Notes: a model not told the origin generated them from the sequence alone. 64,000 bases of DNA from an uncultured Chloroflexia bacterium (GCA_963705905.1 OY970123.1:134919-198918), one strand, 5' to 3'. Shown: positions 3,936 to 19,398, numbered from the stretch's first letter. Numbers and translations are program-made.

Positions 3936-4917
3936 ACGGATTATCTTTATGCCATTTCCATGCGCTCTCTATTATCGGTCCAACTTCCGTGTATTCCGGT
4001 TCCCAGTTCAATTCAGTCTTTGCCAGCTCGTAGCTTGCCACCAGGATAGGCGGATCGCCGGCCCGGCGTGCCAGGGTTCTTACAGGTATTTGTCTGCCGG
4101 TCACATCGCGAGCCGCTTTAACTATCTGCAGCACCGAAAATCCATTCCTGGTTCCCAGATTGTATGCTTTGTTAACATTTTTTGTCAATTCAAGATTTTT
4201 CAAGGCGGCGATATGTGCCCTGGCTATGTCGGATACATGGATATAATCCCTTACGCACGTTCCGTCCTCCGTCGGGTAGTCGGTGCCGTATAGTTCCACG
4301 CAGCCCTCCCTCTTCAGGGCGGCTTTCAAAACGTTGGGAATGAGGTGGGATTCAGGTTTATGGTCTTCGCCGTGAATGTCGCTGGCGCCGGCTGCGTTAA
4401 AATATCGCAGCGAGATATGTTTCAGCCCGTTGGCGGCGCTATATCGCTGTAGGATTCTCTCAAGCATCAATTTAGACTCGCCGTAGGTATTAAGCGGCGG
4501 GATAATGGCCTGGGTCTCTTCTATGGGGACATCCACCGGGCTTCCGTATATGGCGGCTGAGGAGGAGAAGACCAGTTTATTCACGTGGTACTTCATCATT
4601 TTATCCAGCAAATGGACGCCGTACAACAGGTTCACGTGGAAATATTTGTTGGGCTCTTTGATGGATTCGGCGACCTGAGATTCCGCCGCCAGGTGAACAA
4701 CTGCTTCAAAATTGTGGTGATCGAATATGTTGTCGAGCATATTGAGATCCCCCAGGTCGGCCTCTATAAAAATGGCCTCAGACCCGACCGCCTCGCGATG
4801 GCCCTGTTTGAGATTATCCAGGGCTATGACGGTATGGCCCTCTCTAACGAGCTGTTCGGTAACAACGCTTCCAATATAGCCTGCTGCGCCGGTTACTAGT
4901 ATTTTCATTTCTTTCAC
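3919..4917 (-). CDS. galE: UDP-glucose 4-epimerase (NAD-dependent epimerase, SDR extended)
   Basis: MKILVTGAAGYIGS Rossmann motif, YGESK catalytic motif, ~330 aa. Confidence 0.8.
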   Translation of the reverse strand: MKEMKILVTGAAGYIGSVVTEQLVREGHTVIALDNLKQGHREAVGSEAIFIEADLGDLNMLDNIFDHHNFEAVVHLAAESQVAESIKEPNKYFHVNLLYGVHLLDKMMKYHVNKLVFSSSAAIYGSPVDVPIEETQAIIPPLNTYGESKLMLERILQRYSAANGLKHISLRYFNAAGASDIHGEDHKPESHLIPNVLKAALKREGCVELYGTDYPTEDGTCVRDYIHVSDIARAHIAALKNLELTKNVNKAYNLGTRNGFSVLQIVKAARDVTGRQIPVRTLARRAGDPPILVASYELAKTELNWEPEYTEVGPIIESAWKWHKDNPYGYRN

Positions 4918-4951
4918 TCTTAAATAATAAACTTGTAATTATAGCTAATTT

Positions 4952-5197
4952 TTAATTTATAGCCATAGTCCTCTGGTCATTTTGTACCTGTTTGGGGTAG
5001 GTCGACACCTGGTCTGAAGTCTGTTCCAGGAACAGCATTACATCGTCCCGGGAAAAACGCCTGTCGCCCCTCGGCCCCATACGGTAGGATTTGACCAGGC
5101 CCTGGTCGCTCCATCTCCTGACGGTGTTGATGTGGACATTCAGGAGGGCGGCCAGTTCCCTTGTAGTGAACATGCTTTTCTTATAGTTAATGTTCAT
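4952..5197 (-). CDS. Excisionase/MerR-family HTH DNA-binding protein
   Basis: TTRELAALLNVHINTVRRWSDQGLVKSYRMGPRGDRRFSRDDV matches the excisionase-family HTH domain. Paralog of 26650..26856. First gene of an operon with galE and the GT2. Confidence 0.7.
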   Translation of the reverse strand: MNINYKKSMFTTRELAALLNVHINTVRRWSDQGLVKSYRMGPRGDRRFSRDDVMLFLEQTSDQVSTYPKQVQNDQRTMAIN

Positions 5198-5525
5198 ATT
5201 TTTACCAGTCCTAAGTATCCTTAATACAACTCCACGTTCATTAATCTGCTCTAACGTAACTTTATATCAGTAACTGCACCGTGTGAATCACCCATTGGTA
5301 CCGATTGGCCTGGTATTAAAGTCCTGTACAGACCTACCGGACTCGTGGAGTGAGACAATTCTTTTAAATGAATTGACTCTATAGCATAAGGTATAAAGAA
5401 ATCACAAAATTTACAGGCAAGTTATCAAGAATTCATAAACTTTTAAAAGAACTGATCCTAGAATGGACTTGCGGGGTTCTGCGGCGGCTGCGCCCGGACT
5501 GCTGTTAGACCGGTTTAATAAATGC

Positions 5526-6659
5526 TTATTTTACCGGAAATGCTATCTCTTTATAAAATGCTTCAATTTTATTGACAATGTTTTCCCAGTCGTATTGTCT
5601 GGCATACTCCATGCTCGACCGGGCTATGGATTTATTATCCAGCGCCTGCCGTATTTTCCCCGCCAGGTCCTCAGCCGACAGGCTGCAGATGTAGCCGTTC
5701 CTCCCCACCTTGATCAGAGCGGCTGTGGCATTCTGCCGGTAGTCTGTGGTGACGACTGGCAACCCGCAGGCATTGGCCTCCAGGGCCACCAGTCCCAGCC
5801 CTTCCCTCAGCGAAGGCAGGACAAAAACCTTCGAACTTTTCATGTAGGCGAAAACGTCATCCGATTTTTCCAGGAATCCGGTGAATTCGATATTGCTGCT
5901 TAGTCCCAGTCCTGAAGCCAACTCCATCAGGCTGTCACGTTCCGGGCCGTTGCCTATAATAATGCATTTGATTTCAGGCGTCTTTTCCTTGAGGATTTTC
6001 ACGGCTTCGATCAGCAGGCTTACGTTTTTCTCTTTTATCAGCCTGCCCGCAAATATGATGTCCGACTTCACATTGCCCGGTGCAATGCTTCCGATTTCAG
6101 CGCATTCTATGCCTGTAGGGACCACTTCGATGGGGCTTTTCATTCCCAGCGCTATCATCTGGTTTTTGGTGAATTGCGAATTGGCTATAGTCCTTTTAGC
6201 CAGGTAGGTGGCCATTTTCTCGATGAACCTACCTGCCATGCCGCGAGCGCCCAGGTACTCATACCAGTACGCGCCCCAGGCTTCGTGCCAGGTGATGGTA
6301 AGCGGGGACTTTTTGGTGATTGAGGCGAATTTTGCAGAAAAGCAGGAAAAATAAGGGAAGTTCTGGCAGTCGATGACATCGTACCTTTCCTTTAGCAGCG
6401 CCGGCAACACATGCCAGGCGAAATAAAGGGCTTCCTTGATGGAGCGTTGGTCTCCATCCCGTATACTGATGCTGGGACAAACGCCCCACAAGCGCACCCC
6501 TTCCTTATATATTATCTCTTCGCCCTCCCAGCCCTGCATCCCCAGGATCGTGACTTCGTGCCCCCGTTTCTGAAGTCGCACGGCCAGGTCCCACACTCTT
6601 TTTTCCGCTCCTCCCACCACGTAAGGGTAAATTACATCGTAAACATAAGCGATTTTCAT
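5526..6659 (-). CDS. Glycosyltransferase family 4
   Basis: True start taken at the internal Met (MKIAYVYDVIYPYVVGGAEKRVWDL). The ORF's upstream extension is Arg-rich junk and would overlap the gmhB frame. GT4 EX7E-type C-terminal region. Confidence 0.75.
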   Translation of the reverse strand: MKIAYVYDVIYPYVVGGAEKRVWDLAVRLQKRGHEVTILGMQGWEGEEIIYKEGVRLWGVCPSISIRDGDQRSIKEALYFAWHVLPALLKERYDVIDCQNFPYFSCFSAKFASITKKSPLTITWHEAWGAYWYEYLGARGMAGRFIEKMATYLAKRTIANSQFTKNQMIALGMKSPIEVVPTGIECAEIGSIAPGNVKSDIIFAGRLIKEKNVSLLIEAVKILKEKTPEIKCIIIGNGPERDSLMELASGLGLSSNIEFTGFLEKSDDVFAYMKSSKVFVLPSLREGLGLVALEANACGLPVVTTDYRQNATAALIKVGRNGYICSLSAEDLAGKIRQALDNKSIARSSMEYARQYDWENIVNKIEAFYKEIAFPVK

Positions 6660-6700
6660 GATAATCTCACCGCTCCGCGAGTTAAGAATTCCAGTTCCCA

Positions 6701-7234
6701 TCAATTGCCTCGGCTCTCCGGATCCTGGCTCAATATCCAGTCTACCGCATTGCGAAATGAGCCTGCGAAATAGTCCGGGGCGCTTGCTCCGGGTTGCCCG
6801 ACGCTTACGGCCGCTTTGCAGCCCGCATTGCGCGCCATGCCTATATCGATGTCGCTGTCTCCGATGACATAAGATTGGCTGAGGTCTATTCCCAGGTCGG
6901 CGGCGGCGGCCAGCGCCAGTTTGGGCGCCGGTTTGCGGCAATCACAGTTATCTTCGGGATGGTGGGGACAATAGTAAATGGCATCTACGCTTGTGCCCAG
7001 CTTTTTAAGATCGTCGACCATCCTGGCATGGATCTTTTTAAGCGTTTCCTCATCGAAGTAACCCCTGGCGATGCCCGACTGGTTGGTAATTACCACAACC
7101 TTGAAATTGTGCTTTTTAAGCAGTTTGATCCCCTCGGCGACACCTGGGAAAAGTTCGAAATCCTCGGGGCGGCTGCAGTAGGGGACGTCTCTGGCCATCG
7201 TCCCATCACGGTCGATAAAGACTGCCTTATGCAT
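6701..7234 (-). CDS. gmhB: D-glycero-D-manno-heptose 1,7-bisphosphate phosphatase (HAD-IIIA)
   Basis: FIDRDGT...ITNQSGIARGYF...CDCRKP...GDSDIDIGMARNAG. Canonical GmhB motifs, 177 aa. Confidence 0.8.
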   Translation of the reverse strand: MHKAVFIDRDGTMARDVPYCSRPEDFELFPGVAEGIKLLKKHNFKVVVITNQSGIARGYFDEETLKKIHARMVDDLKKLGTSVDAIYYCPHHPEDNCDCRKPAPKLALAAAADLGIDLSQSYVIGDSDIDIGMARNAGCKAAVSVGQPGASAPDYFAGSFRNAVDWILSQDPESRGN

Positions 7235-7811
7235 TCCTGCCTTTTCCGAACATCTTTTGTTCGACCAGGAAGCATATTATGTGAGCGGCGGTGATATGCG
7301 CTTCCTGAACCCGGGGCGTATCGGTCGAGGGGATGGCCAGTGCGTACTTTGCCAATTTCTTTAGTTTGCCCTTCTTTCCTGTGAACACGATGGTTATGGC
7401 GCCCAGTCGTGAAGCTTCCTCGATGCCCTGGATGACATTCTTAGATTCGCCGCTGGTGCTCAATCCAATGACCACATCCCCTTTGGCGGCCAGTCCTTTG
7501 ACCTGGTGGGAAAATATTTCTTCGTAGCTGTAATCGTTGCCGATCGAGGTCAGCACGGATGTATTGGTGGTCAGGGCTATAGCCGGAAGCGGCTGCCTTT
7601 TGAGGTAAAATTTGCCCGATAGTTCGCAGGCGATATGTTGAGCGTCCGCCGCGCTGCCGCCGTTGCCGAATACCAGGACCTTCTTGCCCTTCTCCAGCGC
7701 GTTGGTTATGACGGCGGCTATTTTGAGCAGGCTCTTGGCTTCCTTTTGCAGGTAATGCATTAATTCGATGGTTTGCTCCAGTTGCCCCTGTATTATCTTT
7801 TCTTCTTGCAT
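7227..7811 (-). CDS. gmhA: Phosphoheptose isomerase (SIS domain)
   Basis: VLVFGNGGSAADAQHIACEL...SVLTSIGNDYSYEEIF, 194 aa. Confidence 0.8.
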   Translation of the reverse strand: MQEEKIIQGQLEQTIELMHYLQKEAKSLLKIAAVITNALEKGKKVLVFGNGGSAADAQHIACELSGKFYLKRQPLPAIALTTNTSVLTSIGNDYSYEEIFSHQVKGLAAKGDVVIGLSTSGESKNVIQGIEEASRLGAITIVFTGKKGKLKKLAKYALAIPSTDTPRVQEAHITAAHIICFLVEQKMFGKGRNA

Positions 7812-7819
7812 AAAGCCCT

Positions 7820-8836
7820 CTATTTAGTGCTCACTTCCCATGTCTCCAGTCCGTTGAGTGCGAATTTGAAACCCACGACTTTCCCGCCGATATCTTCCAG
7901 GCTCCTGGCCACGATATGCTGCCTGTCGAATTTACACAGCAGGAGCAGGTATCCTCCTCCACCGGCGCCCAGCAGCTTGCCGCCGATGGCCCCGTTGTCC
8001 TTGGCTGTTTTATATAGTTCGTCGATGTGGGAGTCGGTAATTTTTGAAGAGAAATTTTTCTTGCTTTCCCAGGTCCTGTCCAGCAGGTGGCCGAACTCGT
8101 CGATTTTGCCCAGCAGCAGCGCATTTTTCATTTGCACGGCCAGTTCTTTTGTTTCATCCAGCGCCGCCATGACCTGTTGCTCCCTGTTTACATAGCCGTT
8201 AATTTGCTCGGTGAGGATGCCTGCAGACAGGCGTGTCTTGCCCGTGTAGCACAGCATGAGCCTGTATTGCAGCTCGTTAAGTGTTTCCGGTACTATGCGC
8301 AGCGGGTTGACTACGGTGGTATCGCCAAGGAATTCAATGAAATTAAATCCCCCGAAAGCGGCGGCGTACTGGTCTTGTTTACCTCCCTTGATGCCTGCTT
8401 CCTGTCTTTCAATCTTGTATGCCAGTTCAGCGATCTCGTAGTTGTTGAGGGGGAGTTTCTGCCAGTGTGCTATTGCCCCGGCAACGGCTACGGTCATGGT
8501 GGAAGATGTGCCCAGGCCGGAGCCGGGGGGCATGTCGCTGTGCAGAAACAGGTTGGCCCCGTTTTTCAAGCCCATTACTTTGACGGCTGCCTTTACCAGG
8601 TCCAATTCGCCGTTGTAAATCAGCTTGTCCTCGAGATCGTACCTGGCCACAAGGTTATAATCGAGCGACGTGACATTGAGGGACCTGCTTTCCGTGCTGT
8701 CCAATGTGCAGTAGGCATATTTATCGATCGTTACGCTGATAACCGCCCCTCCGCGTTCCTCCGGGTAAGGCGAGACATCCGTGCCGCCGCCTCCGAAGCT
8801 GATCCTTAGCGGGGCCTTAGCTCGTATGATAGCCAT
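7820..8836 (-). CDS. hddA: GHMP-family sugar kinase, D-glycero-D-manno-heptose 7-phosphate kinase-like
   Basis: Start at the internal Met (MAIIRAKAPLRISFGGGGTDVSPY). GHMP motif PPGSGLGTSS, ~339 aa. In operon with gmhA and gmhB. Confidence 0.7.
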   Translation of the reverse strand: MAIIRAKAPLRISFGGGGTDVSPYPEERGGAVISVTIDKYAYCTLDSTESRSLNVTSLDYNLVARYDLEDKLIYNGELDLVKAAVKVMGLKNGANLFLHSDMPPGSGLGTSSTMTVAVAGAIAHWQKLPLNNYEIAELAYKIERQEAGIKGGKQDQYAAAFGGFNFIEFLGDTTVVNPLRIVPETLNELQYRLMLCYTGKTRLSAGILTEQINGYVNREQQVMAALDETKELAVQMKNALLLGKIDEFGHLLDRTWESKKNFSSKITDSHIDELYKTAKDNGAIGGKLLGAGGGGYLLLLCKFDRQHIVARSLEDIGGKVVGFKFALNGLETWEVSTK

Positions 8837-8975
8837 AACGTATTCTCTCACAGATTGTCGGCCTCGTGCCAGTGTTGGGCTATGGAGGAGACGTTTTTTT
8901 AAATCAGAATATTTTAAGCGCCACCTGGTCATGATAGAATTGTCCGAAAATAGAGTACCGGGGCGGTCAGGCTAA

Positions 8976-10904
8976 ATGTTTAAGGTATTCGGCCTTTTAT
9001 TGATATTGGTACTGGCTTTCTGCGTGTCCTTCATACCCCATATTGGCTATGCCTATCCCCTGCATGTGGATGAGTGGATGCATATGACGTATGCGGAAAC
9101 TATTGCGCAGACCGGCTCCATCACCTTTCCCGACCCCTTTACGGGGCTCACCAATATAAACCTGGGGGACAACCTCTGGGTAGGGTTCCACATACTCTGG
9201 GCCATGTTCCAGCAGGTCAGCGGAATTGACTGGATAACCCTCTTCAGGTACTTCCCCTCAATCATCTTCATGATCACAGTTCTGGCTGTATATGTGTTAG
9301 CCTCTCGCCAGGGCTATGGATTGGAGGCTGCCTTCTTTACCTGTCTGATACCGACCACGGGAGGGCTGCTGGGGCCGGCTTTCATGGTGCCTATGGCGCT
9401 TGGCATGCTCTTTATCCCTCTATCTCTGTTTCTCGCCTTCAATATTAAGAGGTGGCCGTCCTATCTTCTGATATTTCTATTTACCTGTTTCCTCCTCATA
9501 TCGCACGCAACAACTGCCGTAGTATTGTGCATAGTTCTCGCTCCCTGCATCCTGCTGAATATCAGGGATAATAAGTGGCACAGCGCCGGCGTGCTGGCCG
9601 CCCTGGCACTGCCCTTCGTCCTGTCCCTGCCCTGGACATTCCAGATAGCTGCGCAGGCTGCGGGCCGGTTACTGGTGCCCCAGTACTTCTCACCCTATAT
9701 TGAGCTGCCTGACCTTGCTTGGAAGTATGGCTTATTGCCTATCGCTTTCAGCTTCATCGGGCTCATTATTTTAATCATAAAGGGCAGCAAAAAAGGCCTG
9801 GCCCTGATATTGGGGCTGGCTTTGCTTTTGGTTGTCATGGTGATCTTTTACAGGTTTCATCACGGCCTATCCACAATATACGAACGTGGCCTTACAGTTA
9901 TGCTTCTGATTTTGAGTATTCTGGCCGGTGCGGGATTGATGTGGTTGAGGGGGCTGACGCTGCCCTCAGATTTTCTGAGCAGGCATGGGTCTTCTCTTTT
10001 CCGAAGCGTAGCTATGGTATTTTGCGTGTTGCTGATAGTCGTGATGTTAGGTGTGGCCATTCCTACCCGTGTCAATGCGTCGTTCTATCACATGATTGAT
10101 GACGAAGATTACCGGGCATTCACTTGGATTAAAGATAATATAGGTCAAGATTATAGAACGGCCACATTGGACCCGTGGAAAGCCACGGCATTTTCCGCAT
10201 TAACCGGCAAAAATGCCGTGCATAGGATATGGATTTATCAGGAACCAGCTGATGATCTAATTTATAAATTCCTGGAACATGGCTGCGGGAGCTCTACCTT
10301 TCTGACCGTTAACAAGGTTTCTTTTATTTATAATCTTGCACCTTGCGTTAACCCTGATCTCGCAATGGTTAGATCCGATATTTATATTAGCAACCCAAAT
10401 ATTTCCAACTCGTTTGCCAAGGATACAACTCTGTTTAAAAATCCCGGCTTTGAGCAGGTCACCGATAACCCACCTGGTTACTGGTATACTTCGTCAAGAA
10501 ACTGCGTTCCTGCCTTTTTATATCCCGAACCCGGCAGAAATAATGGGTGGAGTGTCGGTATTGAGGTACCAAAAGCGCCATCGACAGGGACGGCATCGGA
10601 CGCAATTTGGCTTCAGAACGTACCCGTGCAGCAAGGTAGGTCTTATACTATAGGAGGATGGGTAAAAACGTATAACGTAGAAGGACAGAATGGGGTCATG
10701 ATCATGCCCGGATGGCAGGGTCCGGGCTATCAATGGATTAGTGCCACGGAATTTATGCCGTATCTTAAAGGGACAAATGATTGGTCGTACTATCAGGGTA
10801 TTGTCACAGCTCCGCCTGGCGCGACGATTTGCAGCATTTATTGCTTATTGAGTAATTGTTCGGGGCAAGCCTGGTTTGATGACCTTATTTTTGATTCTAA
10901 ATAA
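8976..10904 (+). CDS. Polytopic membrane glycosyltransferase (GT-C-like, OTase/PMT/ArnT-type) fused to a C-terminal carbohydrate-binding beta-sandwich domain
   Basis: About 12 predicted TM helices. An acidic first-loop motif (HVDEWMH) resembles GT-C catalytic loops. The C-terminal ~150 aa (MPGWQGPGYQWISATEFMPYLKGTNDWSYYQG...AWFDDLIF) is shared with the protein at 11348..13057. Confidence 0.6.
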   Translation: MFKVFGLLLILVLAFCVSFIPHIGYAYPLHVDEWMHMTYAETIAQTGSITFPDPFTGLTNINLGDNLWVGFHILWAMFQQVSGIDWITLFRYFPSIIFMITVLAVYVLASRQGYGLEAAFFTCLIPTTGGLLGPAFMVPMALGMLFIPLSLFLAFNIKRWPSYLLIFLFTCFLLISHATTAVVLCIVLAPCILLNIRDNKWHSAGVLAALALPFVLSLPWTFQIAAQAAGRLLVPQYFSPYIELPDLAWKYGLLPIAFSFIGLIILIIKGSKKGLALILGLALLLVVMVIFYRFHHGLSTIYERGLTVMLLILSILAGAGLMWLRGLTLPSDFLSRHGSSLFRSVAMVFCVLLIVVMLGVAIPTRVNASFYHMIDDEDYRAFTWIKDNIGQDYRTATLDPWKATAFSALTGKNAVHRIWIYQEPADDLIYKFLEHGCGSSTFLTVNKVSFIYNLAPCVNPDLAMVRSDIYISNPNISNSFAKDTTLFKNPGFEQVTDNPPGYWYTSSRNCVPAFLYPEPGRNNGWSVGIEVPKAPSTGTASDAIWLQNVPVQQGRSYTIGGWVKTYNVEGQNGVMIMPGWQGPGYQWISATEFMPYLKGTNDWSYYQGIVTAPPGATICSIYCLLSNCSGQAWFDDLIFDSK

Positions 10905-10928
10905 CATCGGAGCTAGCAATAATTAGTA

Positions 10929-11246
10929 TCAATTTAGCACAGGCATTAATGGAATTTCCGATATATCTTGACTGAACCTTACATCATCCCAGTTAGCTAC
11001 CATTTTATTGTCGAGATATGGATTATTTTTGATTACCTTTTCATAAGATATGCTGGCTAACGGATACCATTTCTGGTCCAGTACGAATGTTTTTTTATCC
11101 GTAATTCCATTGACAGTTATATGGAAGTTGACCTCGCCATCCTTGAATGCCGGTTTTCCTTCGGGAAGAAGCGAGCGAAATAGATGGAATATGGCCTTAT
11201 GCAAGGTCGCATTCCATTCATTCAGCCATGTAGTTGGACTATGCAT
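10929..11246 (-). CDS. Hypothetical small protein
   Basis: 105-aa ORF between convergent genes. No recognisable motifs. Confidence 0.25.
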   Translation of the reverse strand: MHSPTTWLNEWNATLHKAIFHLFRSLLPEGKPAFKDGEVNFHITVNGITDKKTFVLDQKWYPLASISYEKVIKNNPYLDNKMVANWDDVRFSQDISEIPLMPVLN

Positions 11247-11347
11247 TTTGAAAATTCCTGCAATTCAAAATATATATTCAGATCAAGTATTGCACAGACA
11301 ACTGCCCGGTTTAATGCCCATTAGGCCAGGAATACTTACCAATTTGG

Positions 11348-13057
11348 TTATTTCTCTCCTGATGCAAGTATGACATTGCTGGCTGTAGTATTAGACATTG
11401 CAGTCCGCTGATCGCCGATATATCCGGCGACTGCCACAAATTGTTTTTTAGGCGTACCGTCGGCATTAAAGAAGGACCATTGGTCATATTTCCCGCAATA
11501 TACTTCAAATAATGTCACTATACTGGCGCCATGCTTGAAAGCGGCATCTATGTAATCTGGTGTGAAATTCGAATTGTACATAGACGAATCATTGCCTATT
11601 TCCAGCGCCCACCAGCCGGTTGACCGGTAACCGTTCTGTCCTAACCAGGATGTTAGAACATCCAAATTCTTGTTCATCTGTTCAACTGATGGTGCATAAC
11701 AATCAAAGACAGGATTGTCCGTCCTATCAAGACACACCTTTTTCAGCGGTATTTGGTAATCTAATCCACCTAGAGGGGCACCCAGCTTGTGTACTATGGG
11801 GATATTACTTTTAGTGCGGAGCACTCCAATGAGAAAATCCATGTAATTGGCGGCTGCCTCTATAGTATATGTTTGAGGTTTTGCATCGGGAGAATCCGGA
11901 TCTACGACTTTACCCTGTAGCGGAGTGTCAAGTTCATTCTCTGCTACAACAGAAACAACGTTTGAATATTTATTAACGACCGATATCCATCTCTCTGCCC
12001 ATGCCCCCATCGTATCGGCAACCGGATATTGCGCTTCACCAAAACCTATGTCTTCGAACCATGCAGTTCCCGTACAGCTATCGAGAAAACAACATATTGT
12101 GCATCTGGTCGATCCTGCGGGTGCGACAACAGTTCCTTGGTAGTATGTCCAGCCATTTGTCCCCGTAACATACTTCATAACCTGAGAGGACCCTATCCAT
12201 GTATCACCAGGACCCTTCCACCACGGTACGATCATAGCACCACCGTTGCCAACTATGCTCTCCGTTTTAATCCATCCTGATATAAGGTACGATTTACCTG
12301 CTTCAACAGGTATATCTTTAAGCCATCTGGACCACACGTCCGGTTTGTTTTCAGACATTCTTATGCCTACGCAAGGGTTTCCATCTCTTCCCATCTCGCC
12401 AGGGAGGAAAGTAGGGGTGCAATTCTTTGAATCTGGCCACCATAGACTCCATTGGAAATCAGGATTTACCAAATTTTCAAAACCGGGCTGCCATTTCCCA
12501 TAGATGCCGGGTATCACCAGCATCTTGTGCTGGTATAGTAAATCCAGCAAGGTCTTGTAGGCAGTTGCTTCTTCCGGGCAACTGGATGGGAAATTCGTTT
12601 CTTTGGATATTGAAGGCAGCCACCAGTAAATATATTGCATCTGAAGGTGTACAACCCGTATTCCGGCTGCTTGTGCATACGTCAATATCTTGTCATAAAC
12701 CGCTAAATTTTCAGGGAGCCAAAACTGACCGCCTTCACCAAATGGCATATCGTAAAGGCTCAGATCTATGCCCACGAGTTGTTTTTGTTCTCCATCTAAA
12801 ATGAAATACCCATCCCTGCCTATTTGAACGTGTTCAGTACTGCCGTCGGCCCAGGTGATAGCTTTATCCAGCAGATAAGCGTTCTGCGAAGCAGGTTCTA
12901 TGGGTTGCGCCGGAGCAGCTTTAACAATGGAAGGGGCAGAGAATTGACATAATATGATTAGGCTAAAAACAAACGAAAGATACAGCCTTAAGTTCGCCTT
13001 TATGAGCCGGCCCAAATCTAACCGGCCCGGACGTCTACCTGCTAAGGGATGGTTCAC
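11348..13057 (-). CDS. Secreted GH-like protein with inserted CBM-like beta-sandwich domain
   Basis: Hydrophobic signal-like N-terminus. Core is homologous to 1839..3047. Internal domain (IVPWWKGPGDTWIGSSQVMKYVTGTNGWTYYQG...AWFEDIGF) is homologous to the C-terminus of 8976..10904. Apparent GTG start at 13057, preceded by a GGGAGA RBS. Confidence 0.6.
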   Translation of the reverse strand: MNHPLAGRRPGRLDLGRLIKANLRLYLSFVFSLIILCQFSAPSIVKAAPAQPIEPASQNAYLLDKAITWADGSTEHVQIGRDGYFILDGEQKQLVGIDLSLYDMPFGEGGQFWLPENLAVYDKILTYAQAAGIRVVHLQMQYIYWWLPSISKETNFPSSCPEEATAYKTLLDLLYQHKMLVIPGIYGKWQPGFENLVNPDFQWSLWWPDSKNCTPTFLPGEMGRDGNPCVGIRMSENKPDVWSRWLKDIPVEAGKSYLISGWIKTESIVGNGGAMIVPWWKGPGDTWIGSSQVMKYVTGTNGWTYYQGTVVAPAGSTRCTICCFLDSCTGTAWFEDIGFGEAQYPVADTMGAWAERWISVVNKYSNVVSVVAENELDTPLQGKVVDPDSPDAKPQTYTIEAAANYMDFLIGVLRTKSNIPIVHKLGAPLGGLDYQIPLKKVCLDRTDNPVFDCYAPSVEQMNKNLDVLTSWLGQNGYRSTGWWALEIGNDSSMYNSNFTPDYIDAAFKHGASIVTLFEVYCGKYDQWSFFNADGTPKKQFVAVAGYIGDQRTAMSNTTASNVILASGEK

Positions 13058-13118
13058 GGGTTTTCTCCCTGTTCAAAACCTCCGCCAGCGAAGCCTGCCA
13101 AAGCCCTGGCGGATTTCA
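13055..13118. repeat. Leader repeat copy A: ~64 bp, inverted relative to copy B at 26875..26936
   Basis: cacgggttttctccctgt...tccgccagcgaagcctgccaaagccctggcgga matches the reverse complement of 26875..26936. Contains an 8-bp stem hairpin (tccgccag/ctggcgga). Confidence 0.75.
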
Positions 13119-13381
13119 ATATAAAGGTCCTTTGCTTATCGACCCGTGAACAATATATATCTGATCGTGATTGAGATAAATAGAGACTTAGTCCTTTTCC
13201 TTATAGCCCAAAAGTACTTTTACACTAAAGTACTAGGATGGGGATAGTATTAAAGTCCTGGAGTTTATAGATCTATTTAGTACAAAAGTACTGGTCGAAT
13301 ACGATGATTAAGAAGAAAGCACCACTTACGAAAACTCGTGGAGTATATCGGTTGGAAGAGGCAAATCAAATAAGAAGTCTT

Positions 13382-14827
13382 TTATTCTTGCTTTTCTCTA
13401 TTTATATCGATTAAAGACTTGAATGTTTTGAGGTCTTCTTCCGTGATACCTCGAAGCAGATAAAAACTCAGGCAATATATTACTATGCCGATGAAAATTA
13501 AAAGGATAATGTGAAGATATCCAAAGTAGAAAATGAAAAGGCCCATAACGGCACTTGCTATTATTGGCTTTATAAAAGAATTGGCAAGCGCTTTTATCTC
13601 AATGTTTTGGCCGACCATATAGCAGGAAATTAATACGCATATCAGCTGAGTGACTAATGCAGATATAGCGGCCCCTGTAAGGCTAAATTGAGGTATGAGT
13701 ACAAAACTTAATACAGTGTTCATTCCAGCTCCAATGGCGAGCAAAAGTGTAGCCCTCTTTTGTTTGCGTGTAGCCTCAAGAATGCCTACATAAAGAATGT
13801 TTAAAAACAGTAATATTCCTGCCCAGATGAGCAATTGTAGAGAACCGATAGAGTTGCTAAATTGAGAGCCAAAAATAAAAGGAATTATTTTGCCTGCCAA
13901 GAGAGTAACTCCTGTTGCCATCGGAATTAGCAGGACCAATGAATACCTCACTGCTCTTTCGACCAGGGTTCTATATAATTCTTTGGTAAACACAAAAGCA
14001 TGTGCAACAGAAGGAAATAGAGCACGGCCAAAACCTGTGATTATAACAGATAGGGGAATGACTGCCAGAGTATAAGCTGCCGTATACCATCCCACCACTA
14101 TGTCGCCTTTGAGAAAGGCAAGTATAACTGTATCTATTCGAAAGTAAACCTGAACTAGTAGCCCATTTAGTGCAAAAGGAACGGTAGTTACAAGCAAGTA
14201 TTTCCATAAGCTCTCCGCCAGTTTAATACGTGGACGTGTGAACTTAGTGATGACAATGGCCAGGCCGACCGCGAATATCAGTAATTGAGCCGCGCTATAA
14301 ACCCAGACTACTTGCACAAGGTCATAGCCGGAGTATAAGACAAAAAAGCCCACGCCGAGCAGAAAACAAGTGCCGGCTACTGTAGGTACTATATCCCATT
14401 CCATTTTCTCAAAAGCACGGAAAATGGCTCTGCACAGATAAACAAATGATGTTGCGATTGTGCCAAGTGCAACAATATATACCACTGTCCTTGCATCTTG
14501 GGCATTTTGCGAAAGATTGATGGTCAGCATGACCAGGAAAAACATAAAAATGGAGCCGATTACTTGAAGCACGAGAGCATTGCCGAAATACTTCCCGGCT
14601 ACTGACTTATCCAGCACCACATCTCTGGTAACTACAGCCTCCAATCCGAGACTGGAAAAAATCCCAAAAAGGCTGGTAAAAGCAATAGCGAAAGAATATT
14701 TGCCGAATTCAGCGTCGCCAAGGTAGCGGGCAATTAATACGTTAAAAACAAAAAGTGAAGCAGCGAACAGGGCCTGGCTTGATACCATAGAAACAATGTT
14801 TTTAATGATACGCTGGTGTAGATTCAT
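13382..14827 (-). CDS. wzx: Polysaccharide biosynthesis flippase (Wzx, MOP/MATE superfamily)
   Basis: 481 aa, ~12-14 TM helices. Typical oligosaccharide flippase architecture. Confidence 0.75.
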   Translation of the reverse strand: MNLHQRIIKNIVSMVSSQALFAASLFVFNVLIARYLGDAEFGKYSFAIAFTSLFGIFSSLGLEAVVTRDVVLDKSVAGKYFGNALVLQVIGSIFMFFLVMLTINLSQNAQDARTVVYIVALGTIATSFVYLCRAIFRAFEKMEWDIVPTVAGTCFLLGVGFFVLYSGYDLVQVVWVYSAAQLLIFAVGLAIVITKFTRPRIKLAESLWKYLLVTTVPFALNGLLVQVYFRIDTVILAFLKGDIVVGWYTAAYTLAVIPLSVIITGFGRALFPSVAHAFVFTKELYRTLVERAVRYSLVLLIPMATGVTLLAGKIIPFIFGSQFSNSIGSLQLLIWAGILLFLNILYVGILEATRKQKRATLLLAIGAGMNTVLSFVLIPQFSLTGAAISALVTQLICVLISCYMVGQNIEIKALANSFIKPIIASAVMGLFIFYFGYLHIILLIFIGIVIYCLSFYLLRGITEEDLKTFKSLIDINREKQE

Positions 14828-14886
14828 ATTTTACAGACTAAATAACAGATTATTGGCCCTGCCACGGCTGTTCTACCTGTCTTATC

Positions 14887-17151
14887 TTAGGGCATAACGA
14901 ATAACTCACTCTCATTGTTTGAATATATTCTATCTGTCTTTTCTAACAATGGATTTAGTTCTTGTATATTGAAAGTTTCCACCTTAAGGAAAGTAGGCGG
15001 AATTACCATAGTTCCTACGCCATCTACCACATTTATATACCCTAGATAGACATATTCACCACGTCCAATATTTTGTGTATTTTTATTGAGTGGGATTATT
15101 TTCCATTGTGGTACCATTCCATAACCCGCCAGCACATGTACGTTTGCCCCTTCCACAAAAGTGGCGTAGACCTTGGGACCATCGAGCCAAGATCTGTTGG
15201 CTGAAAGCCACTTGGCACTGTAAACTTCTTCCTCCGGTGTAGAATTATTATAAAAATATGCTTTCTCTTCAATGGTCCCATGCTCTTTAATCGATTGTTG
15301 AAGGAGAGATCCCATAAATGTATAATCTCTGGTTATTTCATGTACGAACCCGGAGTTGAATATCAAGAATACTCCCAGGAAAATGGCCATTGTTTTAAGT
15401 GCAACTCCTGTGGCGGATCGGTATCTCCGAAGAAAAAAATTGACTATGATTATAAGACCGGTAATACAAAATGGAGCCAAAAAGACCAGGCTAAGATGAT
15501 AAATTCTTTCAGTATTAATGGTTTTAGCTAGATACGGAATCGGTATAGCAATCGCAGCCATGATAAAACTGGCTACAGCAAGAGACGCAAATTCCTCAGT
15601 AAATATCTTTTTTCTCCACTCAAACAATAGATAGAGAGTTCCTACCGAAATAAGAAATATTGTAAATAGGTTAAGATATTTGACAATTTCATGTGCAGGT
15701 GATCCCACTGTCGCCATAAGCCAAAGTGCTTGTGAAGCCGTTAGGCTCATGAATTCGACTACGAAGGTATTTGCAATATGGTCGCCCAGTCTTATCACGT
15801 CAACAAAAACTGAGGATCCGGCGTTCCATATATACCAGGTGAACCAGAGAATGATGTAGAACGCTACGAAAGTTATATTTATTACCTTGTTTCTTTCTAT
15901 TGGAATTGACTTAGTGGTTTGGCTCCTTCTAGGGATTAATTCATTGGTATTTTCCGACTCATTTGGTGAGCCCCGAGATAGTGTCTTTCGACTGAGAAAT
16001 AAAATAAGTAATGCAGCTAAAAGTAAGAATAAGAAAATGAAGGATATCGAATAATGTGAAAAGATTAGTGCAGCACCAAAAATAATACATAGAATGCTGA
16101 TTATCACAGGATTATTTGGTTTGCTTACGATTACAAGTATTATTAGCACCAGAAAAACTTCCGCCACCTCCTGCCTACCCAACGAAATTAACACAATAAA
16201 AAATGTGAAAACTGACATGAAGAAAAAGGCCGCTAGAAAAGAAATTTTACTATCAATTTGCCTGCTGCATATCTGGTAAATTCCTAGCGGGACGAGTGAG
16301 AGAAAGAACAGATAAATAAGCTTGAAGACCCATGTAGGCTCTAAGTTACAGATGATAGAATATACTGGCGCTAGGATTACTACACTTATTACAGAATTAT
16401 AGTTATGAACGATTGTAGTATTCCATAGCGAATTGGCAATAACAAGGTTATCAAAAAAATATTCGGTATTAACGTCGGCACCAGTCAGATAGTTTGATGT
16501 GAGAGCCTGACCATAGACCAGGGCCAATGCAACGGTTATCACCGCCAGTGGATAGAATCTCTGTGGAATGAATTTAGTGAATATAATTATGACAGGAACC
16601 AAGGCAACTAAAAGAACTGAAGCGAGAAGCAAAATATTATTGCTATAAATGTTGACTATTCGGGCGCCTAAAATGCTAATTAGTGGAAGTAAGGATAGAA
16701 ATAAAACCGGTGGAGTAAGTAGTTGTGTCCAATGAAAATGTCCTGGAGTGGAAAACATTTTATCTCTTCTATAGGCTATATAACAGAGGAGTATTAATAC
16801 CGCAAGGAGAGTTATTACCAAAGGCCAGATTGATATGGGCTTGGAAATTCCTATAAATGGGTAGATTGAATTAATCAGAAGCCCCAAAAACATGGTGAAG
16901 GCGAGACTTAATCCGACTGAATAAAGTAATGTTTCTGCCAAACCCAATCGGTGAAGCCTGAGTATTCGGAGAATGATTAGCCCCGGAATAAAACTGAGAA
17001 AAACAAATGCGACTATTTGTCTTAGAATAGGAATGTCATATCCCAAAGCTCCTAATATTGCCAGGATAAGTACGATAAGAAGGATGGCAAAAATAGTTTT
17101 TAGGAACTTTCCAATCGCCCAGTCATTGATTGCCAATGGATTATTGGTCAT
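14887..17151 (-). CDS. Large polytopic membrane protein (754 aa), putative glycan polymerase/ligase or second GT-C-like enzyme
   Basis: At least 15 hydrophobic helices plus a ~170-aa C-terminal soluble domain. Very AT-rich coding sequence. Sits in the glycan island. Confidence 0.5.
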   Translation of the reverse strand: MTNNPLAINDWAIGKFLKTIFAILLIVLILAILGALGYDIPILRQIVAFVFLSFIPGLIILRILRLHRLGLAETLLYSVGLSLAFTMFLGLLINSIYPFIGISKPISIWPLVITLLAVLILLCYIAYRRDKMFSTPGHFHWTQLLTPPVLFLSLLPLISILGARIVNIYSNNILLLASVLLVALVPVIIIFTKFIPQRFYPLAVITVALALVYGQALTSNYLTGADVNTEYFFDNLVIANSLWNTTIVHNYNSVISVVILAPVYSIICNLEPTWVFKLIYLFFLSLVPLGIYQICSRQIDSKISFLAAFFFMSVFTFFIVLISLGRQEVAEVFLVLIILVIVSKPNNPVIISILCIIFGAALIFSHYSISFIFLFLLLAALLILFLSRKTLSRGSPNESENTNELIPRRSQTTKSIPIERNKVINITFVAFYIILWFTWYIWNAGSSVFVDVIRLGDHIANTFVVEFMSLTASQALWLMATVGSPAHEIVKYLNLFTIFLISVGTLYLLFEWRKKIFTEEFASLAVASFIMAAIAIPIPYLAKTINTERIYHLSLVFLAPFCITGLIIIVNFFLRRYRSATGVALKTMAIFLGVFLIFNSGFVHEITRDYTFMGSLLQQSIKEHGTIEEKAYFYNNSTPEEEVYSAKWLSANRSWLDGPKVYATFVEGANVHVLAGYGMVPQWKIIPLNKNTQNIGRGEYVYLGYINVVDGVGTMVIPPTFLKVETFNIQELNPLLEKTDRIYSNNESELFVMP

Positions 17152-17246
17152 CCAAAAAACCTTGTTCTTTCACGTACTAATCATCGGTCGGATAATGTCC
17201 AAAGTTTGAACACTAGAATTAACATTATCACTTGGTTCGTTTGACC

Positions 17247-18371
17247 TTATATGACCTGTTCATAAATCCTCTCATAATCATCTGCTACCCTATCCCAAGT
17301 TCTTATCCTGGTGCTAAACGGGCCCACTATTGTCTCACTATCGCGAATCTTGACTATCAAGTTAGCCAATTCCCCAGGCACCGGCGGATAATCTATACCA
17401 AAACACCCTGGCTCCGTTAAAAATTCATTTAGGGACGTAGTTTTAGTGACAATACATGGTGTTCCAGCTGCTAATGCTTCCGTCACCATAACACCGTAGG
17501 CTTCTGCCCTTGACAGAAGCAATACTATATCCGCCTCCATTAATTTGCGATGCAGTTCGTGCCGAGGCAGTGGTTTGTGCCAGAAAACATCGCCTTCGAT
17601 TCCTAATTTACAAGCTAGTCTCCGGAGTTTTGGCTCATAGTCCCCTTTTCCGACTATAGTTAAACATGCTTCTCTTCCTCGACGCTTTAGCTCTTTAAGT
17701 GCCAGAATTATATGATGAACTCCCTTTTTTTCCATTAAGACGCCGGCATACAGCAAGGAAATTGAACTTGCCTTCCCTTTCAACACTCCGCGATCCTGCG
17801 CCATCAGGTAATCCACTCCAGGCGTAATTATTTTTATTTTATTGGATTGCACATTGAAATCCTGCATAAGCACCATTTTTGTATAATCAGAATGGATTAC
17901 AATCATTTCGGCCCAATCAAATAACTTCTTACCAATTGGTTTATAGTAATCCAGTAAATATTTACCAGCCAGTGTATTATATTCTTGCCGTGAATAATGC
18001 GCAGAAAAAATAAAAGGTAGATGCTTATTTCGGACTATATATGCCACTGCAGGAGTTAGGAGCCTTCGATATTCATGAAGGTGTATGATATCTGGTTTAA
18101 GAGACCCACCTAAATTCCTTTGTAAGAATTGTGCCATTTCAGGACTAAATTGATAAAGATGCTTGCTTATAGGCGATTTAATCCTAATCACATTGATTCC
18201 ATTTATATTCTCTTCATGCGGTAGATTTCCGGGGTTAATGTTTAGTACCTGGCATTCGTGACCGCGTTTAACTAGTTCTTCCGCCACTCTCTTAATGGAA
18301 TAATTTACACCGCCGATGTCAGTTATTTCTGTGCTACTTACCGTGAGGATTTTCATTATTTTAATTTTCAA
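17247..18371 (-). CDS. Glycosyltransferase family 4
   Basis: MKILTVSS...RGHECQV N-terminal GT-B domain. C-terminal EAYGVMVTEALAAGTPCIV motif. Confidence 0.8.
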   Translation of the reverse strand: MKIKIMKILTVSSTEITDIGGVNYSIKRVAEELVKRGHECQVLNINPGNLPHEENINGINVIRIKSPISKHLYQFSPEMAQFLQRNLGGSLKPDIIHLHEYRRLLTPAVAYIVRNKHLPFIFSAHYSRQEYNTLAGKYLLDYYKPIGKKLFDWAEMIVIHSDYTKMVLMQDFNVQSNKIKIITPGVDYLMAQDRGVLKGKASSISLLYAGVLMEKKGVHHIILALKELKRRGREACLTIVGKGDYEPKLRRLACKLGIEGDVFWHKPLPRHELHRKLMEADIVLLLSRAEAYGVMVTEALAAGTPCIVTKTTSLNEFLTEPGCFGIDYPPVPGELANLIVKIRDSETIVGPFSTRIRTWDRVADDYERIYEQVI

Positions 18372-18404
18372 TAGATGAGAAATCTTTTTTATATAAATGG
18401 AAAG

Positions 18405-19265: not shown

Positions 19266-19398
19266 AATGATCCTACTTGACGTGATAATAAACTCGTTAT
19301 GGAATCCCGTTTCTATTAAACCGCTATTTTAGATTATTATGGATACGGCTAACTTTTTTATCTGAATTTTCCAGCCTCAGTGGCTCCCTCCCGTTTAG

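What the first reader, a model, noticed from the sequence alone, without database searches (positions are those of the whole stretch)
10400..12300. The same CBM-like module appears in the membrane GT-C enzyme and in a secreted GH-like protein
The C-terminus of 8976..10904 (WSVGIEVPKAP...MPGWQGPGYQWISATEFMPYLKGTNDWSYYQGIVTAPPGATICSIYCLLSNCSGQAWFDDLIF) is ~60% identical to an internal segment of the adjacent 11348..13057 protein (VGIRMSENKPD...VPWWKGPGDTWIGSSQVMKYVTGTNGWTYYQGTVVAPAGSTRCTICCFLDSCTGTAWFEDIGF). The short paralog 1839..3047 lacks the insert. This points to domain shuffling between a glycan-building enzyme and a glycan-processing enzyme that would act on the same carbohydrate.
Basis: seen in the sequence. 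Interest (0 to 1): 0.6.

Follow-up and report, generated by a model that had tools for sequence, protein, structure and literature searches.

The report
Shared sugar-binding module in two enzymes
In a surface-sugar gene cluster of an uncultured Dehalococcoidia bacterium, a membrane sugar-adding enzyme and the neighbouring secreted sugar-cutting enzyme carry copies of one carbohydrate-binding-type domain, a real but fairly ordinary case of domain shuffling; the sugar-adding enzyme's copy lies in the part of the locus that differs between related genomes.

Summary
The C-terminal 154 aa of ORF 8976..10904 (+) and an internal ~145-155 aa of ORF 11348..13057 (minus strand) align at 45% identity over 155 aa (E 9e-40; z = 54 against shuffles). 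The paralog 1839..3047 aligns to both flanks and lacks the insert.

- **Module:** a divergent CBM_4_9-type beta-sandwich. Pfam hits are sub-threshold, but a profile reaches true CBM_4_9 proteins, and the fold matches CBM16, CBM4, CBM22, CBM61 and CBM70.
- **642-aa protein:** GT-C fold, nearest STT3, PglB, AglB and AftD. It has a loop-1 D32-E33 motif, no WWDYG motif, and an outward-facing C-terminus.
- **569-aa protein:** a clan GH-A (beta/alpha)8 barrel with N374-E375 on beta4 and E486 on beta7. The module sits in the beta3-alpha3 loop on the catalytic face.

Neither enzyme core matches any Pfam, NCBIfam or PDB sequence family.

The adjacent copies are not each other's closest relatives. Insert-bearing hydrolases are not monophyletic. 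The GT-C gene is a mosaic whose distal third, module included, changes together with the downstream low-GC cassette.

That both modules bind the same locus-specific glycan is inferred, not shown. Interest is moderate.

The parts
8976..10904 (+). Gene for the 642-aa GT-C-fold membrane glycosyltransferase with a C-terminal CBM-like module. An identical protein is named 'MAG: hypothetical protein WB588_03435 [Dehalococcoidia bacterium]'.
   Evidence: ORF. AF2 model pLDDT 80. Foldseek best matches are STT3 7oci_F (E 1.2e-9, TM 0.49), PglB, AglB, AftD and AftA. Identical protein P0178.
8976..10073 (+). Transmembrane domain, aa 1-366, about 11 TM helices, with the first outer loop carrying H30-x-D32-E33-W34-x-H36.
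   Evidence: Helices in the AF2 model. H30, E33, W34 and H36 are invariant and D32 is at least 90% conserved in 32 homologs. DE codons at 9069..9074 checked. K/R-rich loops alternate, which fits N-in/C-out; this is my reading of the sequence.
10074..10400 (+). Extracytoplasmic alpha/beta domain, aa 367-475, with invariant D375, D378 and D399-P400-W401 in the place where oligosaccharyltransferases carry WWDYG.
   Evidence: The placement relative to WWDYG is my own comparison with the known PglB/STT3 motif order.
10401..10439 (+). Linker, aa 476-488 (ISNSFAKDTTLFK).
   Evidence: pLDDT below 50 for aa 480-491. Short (~485 aa) family members end at reference aa 474-479.
10440..10901 (+). CBM_4_9-like beta-sandwich module, copy 1 (aa 489-642).
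   Evidence: Pfam CBM_4_9 E 0.022. Foldseek matches to CBM70 4d0q, CBM16, CBM4, CBM61 and CBM22, TMt 0.51-0.63.
10130..10280 (.). Approximate recombination breakpoint. Upstream DNA is ~90% identical to locus L010; downstream identity falls to 56-67% and is lost after the stop codon.
   Evidence: Protein profile: aa 1-400 are 80-100% identical (mostly 92-100%), aa 401-642 are 45-65% identical.
10929..11246 (-). Conserved 105-aa ORF of unknown function between the two genes.
   Evidence: Called as a gene in public contigs. 68% identical in L009 and 40% identical in L010, at the same position. No Pfam hit.
11348..13057 (-). Gene for the 569-aa secreted or anchored clan GH-A-like (beta/alpha)8 enzyme with the inserted module.
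   Evidence: ORF. AF2 model with core pLDDT above 90. Foldseek matches to PslG 5bx9, GH5 mannanases and mannosidases, GH1, GH42, GH157 and CBM22-GH10.
12023..12454 (-). CBM_4_9-like module, copy 2 (aa ~202-345), inserted between barrel strand beta3 (aa 180-185) and helix alpha3 (aa 350-361).
   Evidence: The insert alone matches CBM16 2zey/3oea. Translation checked.
11933..11938 (-). N374-E375, the predicted acid/base motif at the end of beta4.
   Evidence: E375 is invariant and N374 at least 90% conserved in 21 homologs. Strand 370-374. Codons checked.
11600..11602 (-). E486, the predicted nucleophile at the end of beta7 (WWALEIG).
   Evidence: At least 90% conserved. Strand 482-488. Codon checked.
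1839..3047 (+). Insert-less 402-aa paralog of the GH-like enzyme, in the conserved half of the locus.
   Evidence: 94% identical to its L010 ortholog.
13382..17151 (-). Wzx-type flippase (13382..14827) and a 754-aa DUF2206 membrane protein (14887..17151). Both belong to the cassette that travels with the GH and the GT-C 3' end.
   Evidence: Pfam hits. Colinear with L009 at ~74% DNA identity over window 9531..18362.
3219..3935 (-). Small GT2 resembling polyprenyl-phosphate sugar synthases, a candidate maker of the lipid-linked donor. A second one lies at 23551..24306 (-).
   Evidence: Best NCBIfam hits are AglJ (1e-38 and 1e-40) and dolichyl-phosphate hexose transferase, all below the curated cut-offs.

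Best explanation
**What it is.** The window holds a cell-surface glycan biosynthesis locus of a Dehalococcoidia bacterium. Two extracytoplasmic enzymes in it carry homologous copies of one subfamily of CBM_4_9-type beta-sandwich.
- In the 642-aa GT-C-fold transferase the module is a C-terminal addition after a short linker.
- In the 569-aa clan GH-A barrel it is inserted in the beta3-alpha3 loop, on the face that carries the catalytic Glu residues.

**Proposed mechanism (inferred).** The module binds the polysaccharide specified by this locus.
- On the GT-C it would hold the acceptor glycan near the membrane-embedded active site, which uses lipid-linked sugar donors, as the lectin-like domains of EmbC and AftD do.
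- On the hydrolase it would extend or feed the substrate cleft, so that the enzyme trims, sizes or releases the same polymer. Locus-encoded hydrolases such as PslG play that role.

**Evolution.** The module most likely spread from the GT-C family, where it is common, into the hydrolase family, where it is rare. This did not happen by a recent exchange between the two neighbouring genes.

**Shown:** homology of the two modules, all three folds, the conserved catalytic motifs, the domain boundaries and the locus mosaic.

**Inferred:** carbohydrate binding, a shared ligand, the enzymatic roles and the direction of transfer.
For: - **Homology of the modules:** E 9e-40, z = 54.
- **CBM family, by profile:** the A1 profile finds 2751 representatives at E <= 1e-3. 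The nearest non-orthologs are true Pfam CBM_4_9 / CBM_4_9_1 domains above threshold, in proteins that also hold GH39, GH16, GH12, GH18, alginate-lyase or heparinase domains. 13 of 32 GT-C orthologs hit PF02018 directly, best E 9.8e-5.
- **CBM family, by fold:** CBM16, CBM4, CBM22, CBM61 and CBM70.
- **GT-C:** fold matches, the conserved D32-E33 loop-1 motif, and weak PTPS_related hits.
- **GH-A:** fold matches including PslG, N374-E375 on beta4 and E486 on beta7.
- **Domain boundaries:**
- **Context:** GT4 and GT2 transferases, a Wzx flippase, DUF2206, heptose and rhamnose nucleotide-sugar genes, and AglJ-like GT2s.
- **Link between module and cassette:** compared with L010, DNA identity is ~90% up to about 10.2 kb. 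It then drops to 56-67% through the GT-C distal third and is lost downstream, where L010 has a GH53-like gene in the same slot. L009 shares the GT-C 3' end, the small ORF, the insert-bearing GH, Wzx and DUF2206 colinearly.
- **Direction of transfer:** about 60 long GT-C clusters carry the module, against 3 GH clusters. The GH inserts fall inside the GT-C module diversity.
Against: - No binding or activity data exist for any member of these families.
- Direct Pfam support for the window proteins is sub-threshold: 15.5 bits against a 25.9 cut-off for the GT-C, and nothing for the GH.
- The two adjacent modules are only 45% identical, and neither is the other's closest relative. Their ligands may have diverged.
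- In L010, L011 and L012 the GT-C with module occurs without an insert-bearing GH. The pairing is therefore not obligatory.
- The N-terminal third of the GH insert (aa 207-245) is modelled with pLDDT below 50.
- I could not inspect coordinates, so the orientation of the module relative to the catalytic cleft is unknown.
- The module tree is poorly resolved, with bootstraps below 0.3.
Confidence: 0.6

Rival explanations
1. The shared beta-sandwich is a docking module, not a glycan binder. It would attach both enzymes to a common protein partner or envelope layer, such as an S-layer protein, so that they co-localise. Shared ancestry would then reflect shared localisation rather than a shared substrate.
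For: CBM_4_9-like folds also occur in phage fibre and tailspike proteins: 8zdo central fibre E 0.0015 by sequence profile, and CBA120 TSP4 and Douge gp20 by fold. The subfamily has 3-4 conserved Cys residues absent from generic CBM_4_9 domains, so it is a specialised subgroup.
Against: The GT-C is already fixed in the membrane and needs no anchor. The nearest sequence relatives are CBMs attached to polysaccharide-degrading catalytic domains. Phage fibre modules of this fold usually bind glycans as well.
Confidence: 0.12
2. The modules are homologous but functionally unlinked. Each enzyme acquired a promiscuous CBM_4_9 cassette and recognises a different glycan, for example GT-C the endogenous polymer and GH a foreign or nutrient polysaccharide. 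Adjacency would then be incidental.
For: Only 45% identity between the adjacent copies, and each is closer to modules elsewhere. Insert-bearing GHs are not monophyletic on the core tree: 0 of 300 bootstraps, with P0007 pairing with insert-less P0022 at 0.99. P0007 lies in a contig with no GT-C nearby.
Against: The GH gene sits inside a biosynthetic cassette next to Wzx and DUF2206, and that arrangement is conserved in L009. A positional GH analogue is present in the alternative cassette of L010. Such placement is typical of polymer-processing hydrolases of biosynthetic loci (PslG-type; PMC4928890, PMC9075953). The GH inserts belong to the narrow GT-C subfamily (E <= 1e-59), not to the general CBM_4_9 pool.
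Confidence: 0.2
3. The 642-aa protein is an oligosaccharyltransferase that glycosylates envelope proteins. Its C-terminal module would bind the glycan of the lipid-linked donor or of the glycoprotein, and the GH would trim protein-linked glycans.
For: The best structural matches are STT3, PglB and AglB (E 1e-9 to 1e-7). The locus has AglJ-like GT2s. From my own knowledge, not tested here, some Dehalococcoidia lack a peptidoglycan wall and have a proteinaceous surface layer.
Against: The WWDYG motif that defines the family is absent; the equivalent position holds an invariant DPWKAT. There is no STT3 Pfam hit even at E <= 1. AftD and AftA, which are polysaccharide GT-Cs, match almost as well. 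Lectin-like domains are a feature of glycan-acceptor GT-Cs (PMC3044687).
Confidence: 0.15

Closest known systems
Mycobacterial arabinosyltransferases EmbC/EmbB and AftD (GT-C enzymes with lectin-like carbohydrate-binding domains; PMC3044687, PMC7341804)
   Same: A multi-pass GT-C transferase with an extracytoplasmic beta-sandwich carbohydrate-binding-type domain at the C-terminus, thought to hold the polysaccharide acceptor. AftD and AftA are among the fold matches.
   Different: No sequence similarity. The module here is CBM_4_9-type. The TM core is structurally nearer STT3 and PglB. The protein is much smaller (642 aa), comes from Chloroflexota, and its module is also found inside a hydrolase.
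PslG and other hydrolases encoded in exopolysaccharide biosynthesis loci (PMC4928890, PMC9075953)
   Same: A clan GH-A (beta/alpha)8 enzyme encoded within the locus that builds its substrate. PslG (5bx9) is the third-best fold match (E 3.5e-7).
   Different: No sequence-level relationship to GH39 or any Pfam GH family. Here a CBM is inserted into a barrel loop.
SusG (GH13) with CBM58 inserted in its catalytic domain, and CBM22-GH10 xylanases such as CtXyn10B. The SusG comparison is from my own knowledge and was not tested here.
   Same: A carbohydrate-binding beta-sandwich combined with, or inserted into, a TIM-barrel glycosidase. CBM22-GH10 (2wys/2w5f) is the top Foldseek match to the whole GH model.
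   Different: A different GH family, CBM family and insertion site. In CtXyn10B the CBM is N-terminal, not inserted.
Pfam CBM_4_9 (PF02018) / CBM_4_9_1 (PF22637); CAZy CBM4, CBM9, CBM16 and CBM22
   Same: The same fold. The characteristic N-P-G-F-E start and W-F-D-D end are present. The profile links the module to domains that pass the Pfam threshold.
   Different: The window copies are below the Pfam cut-off. The subfamily has 3-4 conserved cysteines, and nearly all its close members (E <= 1e-40) are Dehalococcoidia/Chloroflexota GT-C proteins or the GH inserts.
Oligosaccharyltransferases STT3/AglB/PglB (GT66)
   Same: The best overall structural match to the TM domain plus the proximal outer domain.
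   Different: WWDYG is absent, there is no STT3 Pfam hit, and a CBM is added at the C-terminus. I do not file the protein as a member.

Membership tests
CBM_4_9-type carbohydrate-binding module (Pfam PF02018/PF22637 superfamily) | Sequence match to the Pfam model above its gathering score | tested here: not met
   GT-C copy: 15.5 bits against a cut-off of 25.9 (E 0.022). GH copy: no hit. 13 of 32 GT-C orthologs hit at E <= 1, best 9.8e-5.
CBM_4_9-type carbohydrate-binding module (Pfam PF02018/PF22637 superfamily) | Profile-level homology to accepted members | tested here: met
   The A1 profile hits P0046, P0047, P0039, P0051 and P0093 at E 1e-22 to 1e-41. The same proteins score 50-141 bits on PF02018, above the cut-off.
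CBM_4_9-type carbohydrate-binding module (Pfam PF02018/PF22637 superfamily) | Beta-sandwich (jelly-roll) fold like CBM4, CBM16 and CBM22 | tested here: met
   Foldseek prob 1.00 to CBM16 2zey/3oea, CBM4 1gui/1k42, CBM61 2xom, CBM22 4xup and CBM70 4d0q, TMt 0.51-0.63. The GH insert matches CBM16.
CBM_4_9-type carbohydrate-binding module (Pfam PF02018/PF22637 superfamily) | Demonstrated carbohydrate binding, and an aromatic binding face | not testable with these tools
Conserved aromatics (W74, W92, Y108, W115, Y117, Y118, W145 of the module alignment) could not be placed in 3D.
Clan GH-A (4/7 superfamily) retaining glycoside hydrolase | (beta/alpha)8 barrel fold | tested here: met
   Eight beta-alpha units in the AF2 model, core pLDDT above 90. 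119 PDB matches at E <= 1e-3, dominated by GH5, GH39, GH1, GH42, GH157 and GH10.
Clan GH-A (4/7 superfamily) retaining glycoside hydrolase | Acid/base Glu in an Asn-Glu motif at the C-terminal end of beta4 | tested here: met
   N374-E375 follows strand 370-374. E375 is invariant in 21 homologs.
Clan GH-A (4/7 superfamily) retaining glycoside hydrolase | Nucleophile Glu at the C-terminal end of beta7 | tested here: met
   E486 lies in strand 482-488 and is at least 90% conserved.
Clan GH-A (4/7 superfamily) retaining glycoside hydrolase | Assignment to a described GH family by sequence | tested here: not met
   No Pfam or NCBIfam hit at E <= 1 for any of 21 family members' cores. No PDB sequence hit to the core, with the single sequence or the profile.
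GT-C glycosyltransferase superfamily | Multi-pass membrane GT-C fold | tested here: met
   Foldseek matches to STT3 (E 1.2e-9, TM 0.49, 512 columns), PglB, AglB, AftD, AftA and DPY19.
GT-C glycosyltransferase superfamily | Conserved acidic motif in the first extracytoplasmic loop | tested here: met
   H30-V-D32-E33-W34-M-H36. H30, E33, W34 and H36 are invariant and D32 at least 90% conserved in 32 homologs.
GT-C glycosyltransferase superfamily | Sequence match to a GT-C clan Pfam family | tested here: inconclusive
   Only PTPS_related (PF10131) in 3 of 32 members, best E 0.0071.
Oligosaccharyltransferase STT3/AglB/PglB (GT66) | WWDYG motif in the C-terminal outer domain, and an STT3 Pfam match | tested here: not met
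   No WWDxG anywhere in the sequence. An invariant D399-P400-W401-K-A-T sits in the corresponding position. No STT3 hit at E <= 1.

The most novel reading that the evidence does not exclude
The outer third of the GT-C, including the CBM, is a swappable specificity cassette. It would be exchanged by recombination together with the downstream glycan-gene cassette, which includes its own hydrolase. In this cassette type the hydrolase has captured the same reader domain at a permissive barrel loop, possibly more than once. That would give a 'writer' and an 'eraser/trimmer' with a common 'reader' for a strain-specific envelope glycan. Both catalytic cores would then represent undescribed GT and GH families.
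Probability: 0.3. Interest if true: 0.6.

Novelty: new variant of a known kind. Interest (0 to 1): 0.4.

Why it matters
If both copies read the same locus-specific glycan, the pair gives a simple sequence marker for linking uncharacterised transferases and hydrolases to one polymer in uncultured Chloroflexota, whose envelope glycans are essentially unknown. The mosaic GT-C gene suggests that acceptor recognition is exchanged together with the glycan cassette, much as specificity genes vary within surface-polysaccharide loci of other bacteria (a comparison from my own knowledge). Both catalytic cores lack any Pfam, NCBIfam or PDB sequence relative, so they are candidates for new CAZy families. 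None of this overturns current understanding: modular CAZymes, GT-C enzymes with lectin domains, and CBMs inserted in barrels are all known.

Tried and rejected
- **Chance or composition bias:** rejected (z = 54, E 9e-40).
- **Recent local duplication between the two neighbouring genes:** rejected. DNA similarity is only 67% over 198 nt, and each module has closer relatives elsewhere.
- **More copies in the window:** none found. A GT-C paralog with a module (P0186) lies about 11 kb upstream of the window start.
- **Oligosaccharyltransferase membership:** considered because of the fold matches, and rejected because WWDYG is absent.
- **The 486-aa no-Pfam membrane protein next to GT-C orthologs (L012) as a short form of the family:** not homologous.
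- **The small ORF after P0007's gene as a homolog of the window's 105-aa ORF:** not similar by eye.
- **Concerted evolution of the GH and GT-C modules within one genome:** not supported in this window (45-47% identity). It could not be tested for P0007 and P0023, which come from different samples.
- **Bootstrap tree with Biopython:** timed out. I replaced it with my own NJ code. The module tree stays poorly resolved.
- **Literature search for Dehalococcoidia surface glycosylation:** nothing specific to these families.

Full report
**1. Observation**

The window has an ORF at 8976..10904 (+, 642 aa) and one at 11348..13057 (569 aa). The second is on the minus strand, convergent with the first.

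- BLASTP aligns aa 489-639 of the first with aa 190-339 of the second: 69/155 identical (45%), E 9e-40.
- The Smith-Waterman score is 377, against 35.9 +/- 6.3 for 500 shuffles, z = 54. The similarity is not compositional.
- DNA similarity is confined to 198 nt at 67%, so the duplication is old.
- ORF 1839..3047 (402 aa) aligns to both sides of the insert, at 37% and 33% identity, and lacks it.
- An HMM of the module finds no third copy in the window.

**2. The module**

- Direct Pfam evidence is weak: CBM_4_9 at E 0.022 for the GT-C copy and nothing for the GH copy.
- A profile of six module sequences (A1), searched against 1.84 billion representatives, gave 2751 hits at E <= 1e-3, 462 at E <= 1e-10 and 24 at E <= 1e-30.
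- The closest hits are GT-C orthologs and two GH-insert proteins. The next are large secreted proteins with tandem copies.
- Pfam scans of those proteins place CBM_4_9 (PF02018) or CBM_4_9_1 (PF22637), above threshold, on the matched stretches. They sit next to GH39, GH16, GH12, GH18, alginate-lyase, heparinase and beta-helix domains.
- 13 of 32 GT-C orthologs hit PF02018 directly.
- In both AF2 models the module is a beta-sandwich. It matches CBM16, CBM4, CBM22, CBM61 and CBM70 structures.
- The subfamily has the usual NPGFE start and WFDD end, plus 3-4 conserved cysteines. Those fit an extracytoplasmic location.

**3. The 642-aa protein**

- It has no Pfam, NCBIfam or PDB sequence match for its membrane part.
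- The AF2 model (pLDDT 80) matches STT3 (E 1.2e-9, TM 0.49), PglB, AglB, AftD, AftA and DPY19. That is the GT-C fold.
- The first outer loop carries H30-x-D32-E33-W34-x-H36. H30, E33, W34 and H36 are invariant and D32 is at least 90% conserved.
- K/R-rich loops alternate in a way that puts the C-terminal domain outside the cell. This is my reading of the sequence.
- The WWDYG motif of oligosaccharyltransferases is absent. An invariant DPWKAT sits in the corresponding place. I therefore place the protein in the GT-C superfamily only.
- The family is large and all named members are Dehalococcoidia or Chloroflexota MAGs. The identical protein is WB588_03435 of a Dehalococcoidia MAG.
- Long forms (~640 aa) carry the module. 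Short forms (~485 aa) end at reference residues 474-479, about 10 aa before the module. The intervening linker is the low-confidence stretch 480-491.

**4. The 569-aa protein**

- It has no Pfam, NCBIfam or PDB sequence match for the core.
- The AF2 model has core pLDDT above 90. The insert scores about 61-86 over aa 250-340 and below 50 over aa 207-245.
- The model is a (beta/alpha)8 barrel. It matches PslG, GH5 mannanases and mannosidases, GH1, GH42 and GH157; the best overall match is CBM22-GH10.
- E375 is invariant, within N374-E375 after beta4. E486 after beta7 is at least 90% conserved. This is the clan GH-A signature.
- An N-terminal hydrophobic helix (aa 15-40) followed by VKA|AP suggests export or anchoring.
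- The insert lies between beta3 (aa 180-185) and alpha3 (aa 350-361). That is a beta-to-alpha loop, which is on the catalytic face by barrel topology.
- 'PGFENLVNPDF' (aa 191-201) is kept in insert-less homologs. The true insert therefore starts near aa 202, and its junction coincides with an NPDF/NPGFE resemblance.

**5. Evolution of the module**

- Only 3 of 21 GH family clusters carry the insert: the window protein, P0006 and P0007. About 60 GT-C clusters carry the module.
- The GH inserts are 59-67% identical to the modules of one GT-C clade (P0023, P0211 and relatives). They are 45-47% identical to the two GT-C copies of this genome.
- The inserts fall within the spread of GT-C modules. 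Two main GT-C groups average 54% identity to each other, and a more distant group averages 41% to both.
- The neighbour-joining tree places the inserts inside that clade, but with bootstraps below 0.3.
- On a tree of the GH core alone, the insert-bearing proteins are not monophyletic (0 of 300 bootstraps). P0007 pairs with insert-less P0022 at 0.99, and the window protein plus P0006 pairs with insert-less P0008 at 0.66.
- The insert has therefore been gained at the same loop more than once, or lost repeatedly, or moved by recombination. I cannot tell which.

**6. Locus context**

- Window ~500..26,250 is a glycan locus. It holds GT4 and GT2 transferases, GalE-like and rhamnose genes, GmhA, HddA and GmhB heptose genes, a Wzx flippase, a DUF2206 membrane protein and a methyltransferase.
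- Two small GT2s have AglJ and dolichyl-phosphate hexose transferase as their best models, below the cut-offs. That fits lipid-phosphate sugar donors for outward-facing GT-C enzymes.
- G+C falls from ~0.5 to 0.38-0.43 between about 10 and 26 kb.
- Against locus L010 (the genome of P0026), window 1..~10,200 is ~90% identical in DNA. Identity drops to 56-67% from about 10,280 to the GT-C stop codon and then disappears.
- At the protein level, aa 1-400 are 80-100% identical (mostly 92-100%) and aa 401-642 are 45-65% identical.
- Downstream, L010 has a diverged copy of the small ORF (40% identity), a Glyco_hydro_53-like gene unrelated in sequence, and other Wzx and DUF2206 genes.
- The insert-less GH paralog lies in the conserved half, at 94% identity.
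- Locus L009 is colinear with window 9531..18362 at ~74% identity. It holds the GT-C 3' end (module 83% identical), the small ORF (68%), the insert-bearing GH (76%), Wzx, DUF2206 and a GT4.
- The module-bearing distal part of the GT-C therefore belongs to the variable cassette. This is circumstantial support for a link between the module and the cassette's glycan.
- Other genomes have the GT-C with module but no such GH nearby. The pairing is optional.

**7. Mechanism and comparison**

The best-supported reading is that the module is a glycan-binding domain. On the GT-C it would hold the acceptor polymer, as in EmbC and AftD (PMC3044687, PMC7341804). On the GH it would sit at the catalytic face to feed or extend the cleft. 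The GH would process the locus polymer, as PslG-type enzymes do (PMC4928890, PMC9075953).

Carbohydrate binding, a shared ligand and the catalytic activities are all inferred. Three rivals remain: a docking module, homologous but unlinked ligands, and an oligosaccharyltransferase role.

**8. Verdict**

This is a new variant of known themes: modular CAZymes, GT-C enzymes with lectin domains, and CBMs inserted in barrels. It involves two catalytic families without described relatives and a mosaic, cassette-linked specificity region. Interest is moderate, 0.4.

Noticed in passing
window ~10,130-26,250 (breakpoint ~10,130-10,280): The locus is a mosaic. Positions 1..~10,200 are ~90% identical to locus L010, the rest of the GT-C gene is 56-67% identical, and the downstream low-GC (0.38-0.43) cassette is unrelated. 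L010 has a GH53-like gene where this window has the insert-bearing GH.
   Followed up: partly
window 10929..11246 (-): A 105-aa ORF with no family match is conserved in position between the GT-C and the hydrolase genes in three genomes (68% and 40% identity). Its function is unknown.
   Followed up: partly
window 12455..12490 (-), GH aa 190-201: The GH core motif 'PGFENLVNPDF' is present in insert-less homologs too. It resembles the 'NPGFE' start of the CBM, so the insertion junction sits at a short shared motif. This could be microhomology or coincidence.
   Followed up: no
GH family (A2), proteins P0007/P0022 and window GH/P0008: Insert-bearing hydrolases are not monophyletic on the core tree (0 of 300 bootstraps). 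The same loop has gained or lost the module more than once, or recombination moved it.
   Followed up: partly
L007 10001-11926 (same contig, ~11 kb upstream of window position 1): A second GT-C paralog with a module (P0186, 641 aa, 71% identical over the N-terminal 488 aa) lies next to DUF1616 and Rce1-like genes. That neighbourhood recurs around GT-C orthologs in L006, L011 and L012.
   Followed up: partly
window 14887..17151 (-): A 754-aa DUF2206 membrane protein, which I take to be a second GT-C-like enzyme, is part of the variable cassette. Different DUF2206 genes occur in the alternative cassettes.
   Followed up: no
window 3219..3935 (-) and 23551..24306 (-): Two small GT2 proteins have the archaeal S-layer glycosylation enzyme AglJ and dolichyl-phosphate hexose transferase as their best NCBIfam matches, below the cut-offs. 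They are probably polyprenyl-phosphate sugar synthases.
   Followed up: partly
window 5526..6941 (-): The listed 471-aa TTG-start ORF (GT4) overlaps the HAD phosphatase gene 6701..7234. The L010 ortholog is 377 aa, so the true start is probably further downstream.
   Followed up: no
window 28660..32529 (+): A 1289-aa ORF in a high-GC stretch (0.54-0.58) has only a weak Rha78A-like Ig-domain hit. It is otherwise uncharacterised.
   Followed up: no
P0016 (GH family homolog, 782 aa): This insert-less homolog starts with an archaeal type IV pilin-like signal (weak Pilin_N hit) and ends with a Laminin_G_3 domain. The GH family may therefore also occur in archaea, with other binding domains.
   Followed up: no
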